Shown here: one piece after another, positions 1,818 through 9,623 of the stretch
Numbering within the stretch: the first letter of the stretch is position 1
Layout: each line of letters begins with the position of its first letter
Source of the DNA: an uncultured Verrucomicrobiae bacterium
GTDB taxonomy: Bacteria; Verrucomicrobiota; Verrucomicrobiia; Chthoniobacterales; JAFAMB01
NCBI GenBank assembly: GCA_963813025.1
Contig: CAWEXO010000004.1
Location: 1-64,000, forward strand
Direction of reading: 5' to 3'
DNA: 64,000 nucleotides
Made by a program: the position numbers and the translations under genes
The notes under the pieces: model-generated
Told to the model about the DNA's origin: nothing
Seen by the model: only the letters and a program-made list of their open reading frames with translations
The model's database searches: none

Positions 1818-2225
1818 CTAGCGGAAAGGATTAATGGCGACTACGCCGTCAAAATCCTGATGGTGTTGGAGATCTTCGGTGAGAACCTCGGGGCATCCCA
1901 TGCTTCGTGCCGCCTCGACGATCGCTGAGTCCCAATACGACAAACCGAACCGTTGCTGAGTCCGAATCGCGGCGAACACAATTTCGACCGTGGCTGGCTG
2001 GACCGGAAATCGAGTCCAGGAGCGGATAAGCCGGGCCGTCGTTAAGAATCCCACGCCGCTTCCTCTAGCCCGCGTGGCTTGCACATAGAACTCTTGTAAG
2101 ACCTGGGTGGAGAGTGCAAGGCCGCTGCGGGTCAGAATCCGACGAGCCACTCGCTTTTTTGTTGCCTCGGCGCCGTCGCTGCTGATCGCGTAGAGCAGAA
2201 TATTGGTATCAACGAAGCTTGCCAC
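1818..2225 (-). CDS. vapC: PIN-domain toxin (VapC family)
   Basis: FVDTNILLYA, STQVLQEFY, LSYWDSAIVEAA and LTEDLQH PIN motifs. Confidence 0.9.
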   Translation of the reverse strand: MASFVDTNILLYAISSDGAEATKKRVARRILTRSGLALSTQVLQEFYVQATRARGSGVGFLTTARLIRSWTRFPVQPATVEIVFAAIRTQQRFGLSYWDSAIVEAARSMGCPEVLTEDLQHHQDFDGVVAINPFR

Positions 2226-2451
2226 GCCGATGCAATTGGTCGCGCTTTAGTCTGGTCGAGGCGCGAAAGCTCTTGATTTCCGAATAGGCTTGTTCCTGGA
2301 GACGCTCCAGCTTCCGAAATTCATCTTCTTCATCACCCAATATCTGGAGGAACTGCCTCACCAACGCGCTCAGCGAGGTGTTTCGTTCCGCCGCCTTTAT
2401 CTTGGCATTCCGATAAACCTCATCCGTCAGTGAAACTGTGACATTTCTCAC
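2209..2451 (-). CDS. Ribbon-helix-helix antitoxin (VapB-like)
   Basis: MRNVTVSLTDEVYRNAKIKAAERNTSLSALVRQFL RHH pattern; overlaps the PIN gene start. Confidence 0.85.
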   Translation of the reverse strand: MRNVTVSLTDEVYRNAKIKAAERNTSLSALVRQFLQILGDEEDEFRKLERLQEQAYSEIKSFRASTRLKRDQLHRRGKLR

Positions 2452-2657: not shown

Positions 2658-2773
2658 GGTAGGGCGAAAATTCATTCGAGCCTTAGCGAGAACTTGTTTG
2701 AGCCGTCTTGGCTATGGCAACTCCATCGTCCGGCTCAAACGAGTCCTCGCCGAAGGCTCAAATGAAATTTTCG
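2658..2773. repeat. Family A repeat, left part (continues at 4459 after the IS110 insertion)
   Basis: Near-identical to 1514-1636 but stops at AAATTTTCG; the missing CCCTACCGAAGCAGG appears at 4459-4473. Confidence 0.9.
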
Positions 2774-2941
2774 TATAGCAAGTCCGGAGTTATTCAGCAA
2801 GCTGTGGTCGGAGGCCCTACCGGTCGAAGCTCCAGCTTGTGAATAACTCCGCCCGGAGAAAAGAAAGCTTTGGAAAAAAGAAAGGGTTTTCTTTGCCAAG
2901 GGCAGTCGGGCAAAATCCCGCGCTGCCCACGCGAAGAAGGA

Positions 2942-3095
2942 CGCGCCGGCTGGCTACGAATAGGATTTTCGGGTCCGCGAGATCTTTAGGGCAGAGTTTC
3001 GAGCCAGCCGGTCGCGCTTTGATTCGTCACAACGAATACTCTAGTTGAGGTCGAGCACTTCACACTTCGACGACTTAACTATACGGATTTCGGAC
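2942..3095 (+). ncRNA. Putative bridge RNA of IS110 element A
   Basis: Stem GCGCCGGCTGGCT(2943-2955)/AGCCAGCCGGTCGC(3002-3015) encloses ATTTTCG (2965-2971) and TAGGGC (2987-2992), matching both sides of the insertion site; second hairpin about 3042-3081. Ends are approximate. Confidence 0.65.
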
Positions 3096-3151
3096 GGCCA
3101 AAGCCAAGCGGCTTTTTTCGCGCTGGGTAAAACCAGAAAAAAGGAGCAAGC

Positions 3152-4426
3152 ATGAACCGATCAAATCCGTTTCCGGTCCCAGATCCCCATTATATGGTCA
3201 GCGTGGGAATCGATTGGGCTGATAAAGAACACGCTGTCTGTCAACGCTCTGGTCCGGAGGGAGGATGCCGGACATTCCAGCTGGGCGCCGATCCCGTTTC
3301 GGTTCGGACCTGGCTCGAAGAGCTCAAAAGCTTGGCTGGTCCGCAGGGGCGGGTGGCCATTGGTTTTGAACAAAATCGGGGAGCACTCTTTGAAATGCTC
3401 CGCACCCAGGGAGACTGGATCGACCTCTATCCGCTCAATCCTTTGAGTTTAAGCGAATACCGCAAGGTCTTCTTTACTAGTGGCGCCAAGGATGACCCTC
3501 GCGACAGCCAATTGATCGAAGAGCTCGTTGATCACCATCGGGATCGGCTCCGGCTTTATCAACCCCCGGAGCCGGTAGTGCGGGAACTGGATTTGCTCGG
3601 TCAGCACCGACGCAAAGCCGTCGAGGCCTCCGTGGTGTGCGAAAACCAACTCACCAGCTTACTCAAAGTCTACTATCCGCTGGCCCTCGAGCTCCTCGAT
3701 GATTTGGGCACCACTCTGGCGCTGCATTTTTTGAAACGCTGGCCGACCCTGCAGAGTTTAAAAAAAGCCAAGCCCCAGACCCTGCGCTCTTTTTTTTATC
3801 AGCACCACAGCCGCAGCCAGAGCTTGATCGAGGAGCGCTTGGAAAAGATTGCTCGGGCCCAAACCGTCACCGAGGATCGTTCTCTGCTGGAGCCCTCCGT
3901 GCTGAGTTGCAAGTGTTTGGTCAGTCAATTGTTGCCGCTGCGAGATTCCATCAAGGCTTTTGACAAAGCCATCCACACTCTGTTTGCCAAACATCCCGAT
4001 CGGCACATTTTTGAAAGTCTGCCCGGAGCCGGCCCGCAATTAGCCCCGCGCTTGTTGGTGGCTTTTGGCTCCAATCGGCAGGCTTTTGCCCAAGCCCTGG
4101 AGGTACAGAAAAAAAGCGGAATCGCTCCGGTCCAAGTGCGCAGCGGCCAAACCAAAAGCGTCCAGCGGCGGCGCTTTCGCTCCAAATTCCTGTGCCAGAG
4201 CTTCCACGAATTCGCGGCTCATTCCATTCCTTATTCCCAATGGGCCAAGCTCTATTATCAAGAGCAAATGGCCCGCGGTAAGTCCCACCACACTGCCGTG
4301 CGCGCCTTGGCCTTTAAATGGATCCGCGTCATCTTCCGGCTCTGGCAGGACCGCACCCCTTATGACGAAGAGCGCTACCTCCAAGTCCTCAAAAAACGCC
4401 ACTCACCAATCGGTGAAAAACTTTAA
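3152..4426 (+). CDS. IS110-family transposase/recombinase
   Basis: DEDD RuvC-like motifs VGIDWADKEH, IGFEQ, GAKDDPRDS; C-terminal SLPGAGPQLAPRLL and RSG serine motif; AGGAG RBS. Confidence 0.95.
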   Translation: MNRSNPFPVPDPHYMVSVGIDWADKEHAVCQRSGPEGGCRTFQLGADPVSVRTWLEELKSLAGPQGRVAIGFEQNRGALFEMLRTQGDWIDLYPLNPLSLSEYRKVFFTSGAKDDPRDSQLIEELVDHHRDRLRLYQPPEPVVRELDLLGQHRRKAVEASVVCENQLTSLLKVYYPLALELLDDLGTTLALHFLKRWPTLQSLKKAKPQTLRSFFYQHHSRSQSLIEERLEKIARAQTVTEDRSLLEPSVLSCKCLVSQLLPLRDSIKAFDKAIHTLFAKHPDRHIFESLPGAGPQLAPRLLVAFGSNRQAFAQALEVQKKSGIAPVQVRSGQTKSVQRRRFRSKFLCQSFHEFAAHSIPYSQWAKLYYQEQMARGKSHHTAVRALAFKWIRVIFRLWQDRTPYDEERYLQVLKKRHSPIGEKL

Positions 4427-4602
4427 CTTTTTCCCTTGCCAGACCTGCTCAGATACTACCCTACCGAAGCAGGGTCGGAAGCAACCTTGCGAGGCCAACC
4501 TTTCCATTCATCGGGCCGTGCGCTGATTATTTCCGGTCGGTGGTTCGCAGGGGGAATCTACTTCGCTTGCTGTTTAGCGGGTTTTATGGTTAACTTGTTT
4601 CC

Positions 4603-4875
4603 ATGAAAGCTACGATCGACTTTGAGGATGAGCTTTACCGCCGATTGAAAGCAACCGCCGCCCTGGAGGGACGCAAGGTCAAGGATTTGGTCGCCGAGGC
4701 GGTTCGCTCCCTTTTGACGGATGAAAAGCCGGCGCTCCGTCGACGCAAGCGAATCCAATTGCCGGTGGTGAAGTCCAAGAAGCCAGGAACACTCGCTCTG
4801 ACAAGCGAGGCGATTGCTGAACTGGAAACTCTGTTGGACCTAAGAGGACGCAATAAACAACCGGGCGGCCGTTAA
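4603..4875 (+). CDS. Orphan RHH antitoxin-like protein
   Basis: MKATIDFEDELYRRLKATAALEGRKVKDLVAEAVRSLL resembles VapB/CopG antitoxins; no toxin gene follows. Confidence 0.7.
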   Translation: MKATIDFEDELYRRLKATAALEGRKVKDLVAEAVRSLLTDEKPALRRRKRIQLPVVKSKKPGTLALTSEAIAELETLLDLRGRNKQPGGR

Positions 4876-9309: not shown

Positions 9310-9623
9310 CTAGTGCGCCGTCTCATATATAACGATGACGTCGCCGCAGGTCAGTTGGCTGTTTTTCAAGGCGGTCCGAGCCGGACTGGCAGTAGAAGCG
9401 TCCATATCTGGATTCATACGGATCGAGGTCCAAGCCGGACTGGCAGTAGCAACGCCGAAAAACAGCCAACTGGCCGCGGCCCGAAGGGTTGCGTTGAAAA
9501 TGGGCCGGCGGCGGCGTTGCACCTCGGTCACGTATCGTTTCAGATATGCTCCCTCCTCGCGCCTTGCCGGCGGCCCATTTTGAACGCAACGACATCATCG
9601 GTATATATGAGACGGTGCACTAG
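9310..9623. mobile_element. MITE flanked by CTAG with about 30-bp terminal inverted repeats
   Basis: CTAGTGCGCCGTCTCATATATAACGATGA ... TCATCGGTATATATGAGACGGTGCACTAG; internal palindromes; a solo end at 16453-16467. Confidence 0.8.

What the first reader, a model, noticed from the sequence alone, without database searches (positions are those of the whole stretch)
2774..4458. IS110 element A: readable target-guide loop against the REP-like repeat, with no core clearly shared between target and donor
Seen: the insert splits the family A terminus as AAATTTTCG|CCCTACC. Upstream of the recombinase, a strong stem (2943-2955/3002-3015) encloses GGATTTTCG (2963-2971), which ends exactly at the insertion point, then a small hairpin, then TAGGGC (2987-2992), the reverse complement of GCCCTA. 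Established: IS110 bridge RNAs use left and right target guides in such an internal loop, and IS621 needs a matching core dinucleotide in target and donor. Inference: the junctions here are TTTTCG|TATAG and GATACTA|CCCTA, so the target core would be CG and the donor core TA. That suggests a bridge-recombinase clade tolerating mismatched cores. Donor-guide candidates (ATACT 3036-3040, CTATA 3079-3083) are weaker.
Basis: partly seen in the sequence, partly recalled or inferred. Interest (0 to 1): 0.85.

Follow-up and report, generated by a model that had tools for sequence, protein, structure and literature searches.

The report
Bridge-RNA jumping gene, one-base core
This RNA-guided jumping gene joins its own ends to a repeated DNA site with which it shares only one base instead of the usual two, and its guide RNA seems built to use that mismatch to push the reaction forward, which if true would loosen a design rule for programmable DNA insertion.

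Summary
An intact IS110 bridge-RNA element, with ten full copies in this genome, all at the same base of a repeat end (TTTTCG|CCCTA). The 'TA donor core' is not the element's core: the A at 4458 is private to this copy, and 9 of 10 copies end GATACTG. Target CG and donor TG therefore share one base (position 9) and differ at position 8. There the guides are cross-set: the target loop pairs the donor's T, the donor loop the target's C, so both pair fully only after top-strand exchange, like IS621's handshake bases. Across 37 related lineages, position 9 is always shared; position 8 differs in 4, cross-set in 3, and in those 3 the usual handshake positions give no net drive. Best reading (0.62): one-base core, with position 8 acting as handshake. 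A cut one base further left, giving a fully unmatched core, is not excluded (0.15). Nothing is shown experimentally. The scan already noted the one-base core on another copy in this genome (e1-7688197). Not seen in the papers searched.

The parts
2658..2672 (+). Left terminus (GGTAGGGCGAAAATT) of the ~120-bp repeat unit with inverted GTAG-type ends that is the target
   Evidence: 76 units with both inverted termini in the genome
2765..2773 (+). Left target plus target core, AAATTTT-CG (positions 1-9)
   Evidence: 11 of 11 left junctions end TTTTCG
2774..2779 (+). Left end: right donor TATAG; also the -10-like hexamer TATAGC of the junction promoter (inferred)
2777..2788 (+). Left arm of a short imperfect subterminal inverted repeat
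   Evidence: 9 of 12 match to 4438-4449; conserved offset in 37 lineages
2785..2851 (+). Long 5' hairpin of the leader
   Evidence: fold
2943..3015 (+). Target-binding loop: outer stem 2943-2955/3002-3015, conserved ACGAAU 2956-2961, inner hairpin 2971-2985
2963..2971 (+). Left target guide GGAUUUUCG
   Evidence: score 8.5 of 9 against own target, at most 5.0 against 36 other lineages' targets
2987..2995 (+). Right target guide UAGGG, core guide CA, handshake GA; pairs the right junction CTG|CCCTA (A2993 with donor T8, not target C8)
3039..3047 (+). Left donor guide CUC(U)AGUUG against donor CTCAGATA (one bulge, one mismatch, one wobble)
   Evidence: family layout and covariation
3079..3087 (+). 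Right donor guide CUAUA, core guide CG, handshake GA; pairs the left junction TTCG|TATAG (G3085 with target C8; wobble with donor T8)
3152..4426 (+). IS110 recombinase, 424 aa; D21, E73, D115, D118, S331 conserved
   Evidence: PF01548 and PF02371; NF033542 148.4 bits over cut-off 140; alignment
4436..4441 (+). -35-like hexamer TTGCCA, 17 nt from TATAGC in the inferred circle junction
   Evidence: sequence; promoter function inferred
4450..4458 (+). Left donor CAGATAC plus donor core: TA in this copy, TG in the other nine
4459..4465 (+). Right target CCCTA(CC), remainder of the repeat end
   Evidence: 10 of 10 right junctions

Best explanation
An active-looking IS110 bridge recombinase element that targets a repeat end. 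SHOWN in sequence: target AAATTTT-CG-CCCTA, element ends CAGATAC-TG and TATAG, and guides that match them. INFERRED by analogy with IS621: a circle with junction CAGATAC-TG-TATAG makes the bridge RNA from a promoter formed across the junction; top strands are cut after position 9 (the shared G) and swapped; bottom-strand mismatches are repaired or replicated from the top strand, so the left junction keeps the target's CG and the right junction the donor's TG. The shared core is thus one base. Position 8 acts as a handshake position: the guides pair it poorly before exchange (mismatch, wobble) and by Watson-Crick pairs after it, supplying the forward drive that positions 6-7 do not supply here. 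The window copy's A4458 is then a private mutation or assembly error.
For: Junctions uniform in 11 of 11 left and 9 of 10 right ends and in 68-70% relatives. In 37 lineages the same layout gives a base shared at position 9 in 37 of 37 and cross-pairing at position 7 (right target guide with donor 32 of 37, with target 6 of 37; right donor guide with target 28 of 37, with donor 6 of 37), which fixes the register. The nearest relatives on the tree have TG/TG cores with CA guides in both loops (L061, L065) or CA/TA with the same cross-setting in a standard layout (L028; empty target with CA found 7 times, with TA 0 of 10 matches). Net pairing gain at positions 6-7 is zero or negative in 3 of 3 cross-set lineages but positive in 26 of 33 matched lineages. 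In one cluster of ten insertions the left core varies (GA, AA, GG) while the right is always GA, as a cut after position 9 with top-strand inheritance predicts. IS621: cut after position 9, incoming core pairs the opposite guide, handshake pairing drives exchange (PMC11208158).
Against: No circle junction seen (0 in the genome; no joint) and no RNA data. The target loop has one extra base before its closing motif, so its own layout fits a cut one base to the left equally well (11/1 vs 10/0 tie). The window's A is more easily explained by that other register. Only three cross-set lineages, two in one clade, so P = 0.02 overstates. Three other clusters have unmatched cores without cross-setting (L078 group, L149 group, L258). 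L004's empty site was not found and its left guide fits only with an offset. IS621 prefers T at position 9 through a protein contact and CT and GT cores did not cross-react (10.64898/2026.04.29.721476).
Confidence: 0.62

Rival explanations
1. One-base core, but the position-8 mismatch is only tolerated: insertion is decided by the top strand, core identity matters little, and the cross-set guide bases are drift (the target-loop A is simply ancestral, the donor-loop G a wobble-compatible change).
For: Unmatched cores without cross-setting occur in three clusters. A is the ancestral-looking target-loop base in the clade. CazIS110-1 integrates mainly by the top strand (10.1101/2025.10.25.684509). 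7 of 33 matched-core lineages also lack drive at 6-7.
Against: The guide state is kept between proteins 30% apart and recurs with other letters in L028 and L004; all three lack drive at 6-7.
Confidence: 0.2
2. The cut lies one base to the left, before the G: target core TC, donor core CT, no core base shared; the G is the first base of both right arms. The window copy then records insertion into a repeat variant with A at that place.
For: The target loop reads as a standard AG-AG layout in this register. Empty repeat ends with A at that place exist: 4 pattern matches, 3 in repeat context, against 205 with G, while private changes are few (about 6 private sites in 10 copies).
Against: The donor loop, the TATAG end and the spacing of the subterminal repeats are standard for the other register. 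Two TG/TG relatives (L061, L055) also carry the extra base. It would be the only one of 37 lineages unmatched at position 9 as a rule. The window copy has a second private G-to-A change at 2827.
Confidence: 0.15
3. Ordinary shared two-base core (TA, TG or CG) misread from one copy.
For: None beyond the fact that most relatives have matched cores (33 of 37).
Against: Empty sites read TTTTCGCCCTAC 147 times, TTTTTGCCCTAC 4 times, TTTTCGTACCCTA 0 times; no left junction with TG and no right junction with CG in the genome.
Confidence: 0.01

Closest known systems
IS621 and ISCro4/IS622 bridge recombinases (PMC11208160, PMC11208158, 10.1101/2025.05.14.653916)
   Same: DEDD plus Tnp-serine recombinase; bridge RNA upstream with two guide loops; right guides spanning arm, core and handshake; REP-type target; promoter-like hexamers formed across the junction. 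These two are the only solved-structure matches (E 2e-6 and 9e-6).
   Different: Distant protein (424 aa against 328-341); CT core shared by target and donor there, here CG against TG with G at position 9; handshake-type pairing at position 8; left donor guide does not reach the core; short imperfect subterminal inverted repeats.
ISPpu9 and ISPpu10 of Pseudomonas putida (PMC12288879; 10.64898/2026.03.19.712850)
   Same: IS110 elements inserted in REP sequences at a fixed base.
   Different: Both have a two-base core present at both ends (AG; CT) in the passages read.
CazIS110-1 (10.1101/2025.10.25.684509)
   Same: IS110 bridge system whose mainly top-strand integration would let unmatched bases persist.
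   Different: Core composition not given in the text I saw ('core' 0 occurrences in the listing; figures not held); relationship to this clade not tested.
IS1111 group (PMC11187229)
   Same: Subterminal inverted repeats near both ends.
   Different: Here the repeats are short and imperfect, the non-coding arm is upstream, and the protein is 424 aa (IS1111 group 330-350 aa; subgroup of IS110 itself 395-455 aa).

Membership tests
IS110 family | N-terminal DEDD domain and C-terminal domain with conserved SG | tested here: met
   PF01548, PF02371; NF033542 over cut-off; D21, E73, D115, D118, S331-G332
IS110 family | Mobile, inserted at a specific target without added target bases | tested here: met
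   10 full copies at one motif, different flanks; joined flanks restore the empty site
IS110 family | Circular intermediate with joined ends | not testable with these tools
   No junction in the assembly or in contigs laid; needs PCR or raw reads
IS110 group (not IS1111) | Long non-coding arm upstream; subterminal repeats absent or short and imperfect | tested here: met
   378 bp upstream, 32 bp downstream; repeats 9 of 12 here, mean 5.3 of 10 in 37 lineages vs 3.9 between-lineage null; criteria from PMC11187229 section 6
IS621-type bridge RNA system | Two internal loops, each with a left guide, inner hairpin and right guide | tested here: met
   Outer stems covary in 30 sequences (the target-loop stem was also used to pick them); inner target hairpin more stable than shuffles in 35 of 37; the single-sequence best fold closes the loop
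IS621-type bridge RNA system | Target guides covary with the insertion site | tested here: met
   Left guide mean 6.73 vs permuted 4.11 (max 4.99); right guide 4.76 vs 2.84 (max 3.23); low-match loci had been dropped first, which inflates this
IS621-type bridge RNA system | Handshake pairing at position 7 with the opposite partner | tested here: inconclusive
   Met for the family; in this element positions 6-7 give equal pairing before and after exchange
IS621-type bridge RNA system | Identical core dinucleotide in target and donor | tested here: not met
   CG against TG
IS621-type bridge RNA system | RNA expressed and bound by the recombinase; cut after position 9 | not testable with these tools
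RAYT-associated REP/REPIN (target repeat) | GTAG-type inverted ends and a Y1 transposase gene flanked by the repeats | tested here: inconclusive
   Inverted GTAG ends in 76 units; three PF01797 matches, none flanked by this repeat; genome 80% complete. The label GTAG-type REP is recalled.

The most novel reading that the evidence does not exclude
In this IS110 lineage no identity between target and donor core is required at all: the junction is set by the guide RNA alone, each core base can be programmed to pair only after strand exchange, and here the cut may lie before the G so that a TC target recombines with a CT donor. Natural insertions with G against A at position 9 under U guides (L151, L155, L156) point the same way.
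Probability: 0.22. Interest if true: 0.82.

Novelty: new variant of a known kind. Interest (0 to 1): 0.55.

Why it matters
Bridge-recombinase design pairs sites by matching core dinucleotides (10.1101/2025.05.14.653916), and mining pipelines rebuild target and donor around a shared core and drop elements whose boundaries cannot be set that way (10.64898/2026.10.21.760802), so such elements may be under-counted. A natural enzyme working with a G at position 9 and an unmatched, cross-guided position 8 would widen the addressable sites, add a third handle on directionality, and give a direct test of whether the 'core' is a chemical need or only a by-product of guide pairing.

Tried and rejected
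Shared TA, TG or CG core: rejected by copy and empty-site counts. ATACT as left donor guide: rejected by family layout. Sequencing runs: no RNA holder listed; contigs of four runs laid gave no joint, and did not settle base 4458, which lies near a contig end. Search of viral contigs for the circle junction: 26 matches, 0 of 26 continued like the element, taken as chance. Rfam: nothing above a gathering score. Promoter scan of the linear element: one minus-strand site, at chance level. Clade-specific residues that might explain a purine at position 9: four columns differ (136, 239, 343, 348), none beside E73; not interpretable. Empty site for L004: no exact TT match among 43 loose matches, at control level. 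Class and phylum searches gave few new loci. The careful tree did not finish; the quick tree was used. No structure or complex prediction was run, since it could not place the cut.

Full report
1. Observation. The ORF at 3152-4426 encodes a 424-aa IS110 recombinase (PF01548, PF02371; NF033542 over its cut-off) with D21, E73, D115, D118 and S331 conserved among 19 aligned relatives. The genome holds ten full copies, 98.8-100% identical in protein, and one truncated copy. All 11 left ends follow TTTTCG and start TATAG; all 10 right ends are followed by CCCTACC. Nine of ten right ends read GATACTG; only the window copy reads GATACTA, and it has a second private G-to-A change at 2827. The empty motif ATTTTCGCCCTA occurs 136 times against 0.57 expected; it is the end of a roughly 120-bp unit with inverted GTAG-type termini (76 units with both ends). 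TTTTCGTACCCTA occurs 0 times. So the target is AAATTTT-CG-CCCTA, the inferred donor CAGATAC-TG-TATAG, and one G is shared.

2. Guides. Numbered as in IS621 (core = positions 8-9, cut after 9; PMC11208158), the left target guide is 2963-2971. The right target guide runs UAGGG-CA-GA (2987-2995) and pairs the right junction CTG|CCCTA with eight Watson-Crick pairs; at position 8 its A pairs the donor's T and mismatches the target's C. The right donor guide runs CUAUA-CG-GA (3079-3087) and pairs the left junction TTCG|TATAG with eight pairs and one wobble; at position 8 its G pairs the target's C and only wobbles with the donor's T. The left donor guide is CUC(U)AGUUG at 3039-3047. The best single-sequence fold closes the target loop, and opening the guides costs 13 kcal/mol; the loop rests on family evidence.

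3. Relatives. Of 268 loci held, 212 had a recombinase match. 104 were dropped: 44 no donor-guide parse, 19 no target loop, 15 no left junction, 8 no right junction, 4 cut short, 14 poor guide match (mostly CT/CT; L008 and L254 looked unmatched). The 108 left are 88 distinct insertions, 54 clusters at 90% and 37 at 65% protein identity. One member per 65% cluster was counted (the first; for this element a copy with the majority G). Ends were located by the motifs CTCAG and the reverse complement of the donor guide, and the right-hand register by best guide match, so guide-match scores are partly built in; the core and handshake columns were not used for selection. Position 9 is shared in 37 of 37, position 8 in 33 of 37, position 7 in 4 of 37. 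At position 7 the guides pair the opposite partner (32 vs 6 of 37; 28 vs 6 of 37), the handshake described for IS621. Matched cores are CT, CC, TT, AT, TG and GA. Position 8 differs in this element and its 68-70% relatives (CG/TG; 7 left and 8 right junction rows uniform, 5 empty sites in G005), L028 (CA/TA; empty CA site 7 times), L004 (TT/AT; empty site not found) and the L078 group (CT/GT). The first three are cross-set in both loops; the L078 group is not. Counting any member, 6 of 37 clusters hold an insertion with unequal cores. On the quick tree (54 of 54 rows, SH-aLRT only) this element, L028 and the TG/TG pair L061/L065 form one clade (support 100); L004 lies elsewhere, so cross-setting has two or three origins.

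4. Mechanism. In IS621 the top strands are cut after position 9 and swapped, the incoming core pairs the opposite right guide, and the bottom strand is left with mismatches next to the core. An extra mismatch at position 8 would fall in that same tract (inference). In the L149 cluster ten insertions have variable left cores and a fixed right core, including G against A at position 9, which fits top-strand inheritance. Here positions 6-7 pair equally before and after exchange, and the whole gain lies at position 8; the gain at 6-7 is also zero or negative in L028 and L004, but positive in 26 of 33 matched lineages (P = 0.02 if independent, which they are not). I therefore read position 8 as a handshake position and the core as one base (0.62). 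Junction identity is shown; cut site, RNA, circle and the handshake role are inferred.

5. Against. The target loop has one base more than the usual layout, so a cut before the G scores equally; that would give TC against CT and would explain A4458 as inherited from a variant target, of which three exist in repeat context against 205 with G. The donor loop, the end geometry and the sister lineages favour the other register. The mismatch may also be merely tolerated, as in three clusters without cross-setting. No circle junction or RNA was seen.

6. Literature. Five searches listed no paper describing a natural one-base or unmatched core with cross-set guides; the one 'core mismatch' hit was a word-adjacency match in a methods sentence. 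The library lacks most subscription papers, figures are not held, and I read no supplements, where tables of natural cores could bear on this. Seen: PMC11208158 passages and section 11; PMC11187229 passages and section 6; 10.64898/2026.08.31.748434 part 1 of 6 and passages; 10.1101/2025.10.25.684509 part 1 of 5 and passages; passages only of PMC11208160, 10.1101/2024.01.24.577089, 10.1101/2025.05.14.653916, PMC13626964, PMC12288879, 10.64898/2026.04.29.721476, 10.64898/2026.10.21.760802, 10.64898/2026.08.14.744561 and 10.64898/2026.03.19.712850. In these, cores were reprogrammed in target and donor together, and CT and GT cores were used as non-cross-reacting. PMC11187229 notes that duplications are not characteristic of these families, so absence of a two-base repeat is not in itself unheard of. 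The scan's own notes record the one-base core and the repeat targeting on other copies in this genome; I had reached that reading before the look-up.

7. Verdict. Works like IS621; member of the IS110 family; fails the shared-dinucleotide feature of the IS621 model. New variant of a known kind, interest 0.55.

Noticed in passing
G000 C11:77956(-), C13:92678(+), C1:207977(-); corresponds to window 2774-2786: Three of 11 left ends carry a 13-bp duplication of the first bases. The new junction pairs the right donor guide better (12 of 13, one wobble) than the normal junction, and the two full copies belong to different haplotypes. Possibly a donor-loop half-match product; slippage is not excluded.
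   Followed up: partly
window 2777-2788 and 4438-4449: Short imperfect subterminal inverted repeat at fixed offsets (3 and 9 nt) across 37 lineages that have an upstream bridge RNA.
   Followed up: partly
L149-L163 (IMG/VR contigs): One element family whose two core guides are UU and which sits at GA, AA and GG target cores with a fixed GA donor core: natural wobble tolerance at both core positions.
   Followed up: partly
L004:700-760 and right flank: A relative inserted at the GTTAG end of what looks like an integron attC site (recalled pattern), with TT/AT core and a left guide offset by two bases.
   Followed up: no
window 2815-2826: The 5' hairpin of the leader holds a 12-nt stretch identical to the right half of one target-repeat subfamily (25 matches in the genome, element copies included); not kept in the 69% relatives.
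   Followed up: no
G000 C1:207977(-): Truncated copy ends inside the target loop at GCGAGA, a word also found downstream of the target repeats; looks like a microhomology deletion.
   Followed up: no
window 3400-3850: Three copies share a block of about 20 substitutions in the gene, also seen in run X1: two recombining haplotypes of the element.
   Followed up: no
window 1818-2451(-) and 4603-4875(+): The target repeat lies between toxin-antitoxin-like genes: PIN domain with DUF6364 partner, and a ParD-like gene.
   Followed up: partly
window 9310-9623: Another structure of nested inverted repeats, unrelated to the target repeat.
   Followed up: no
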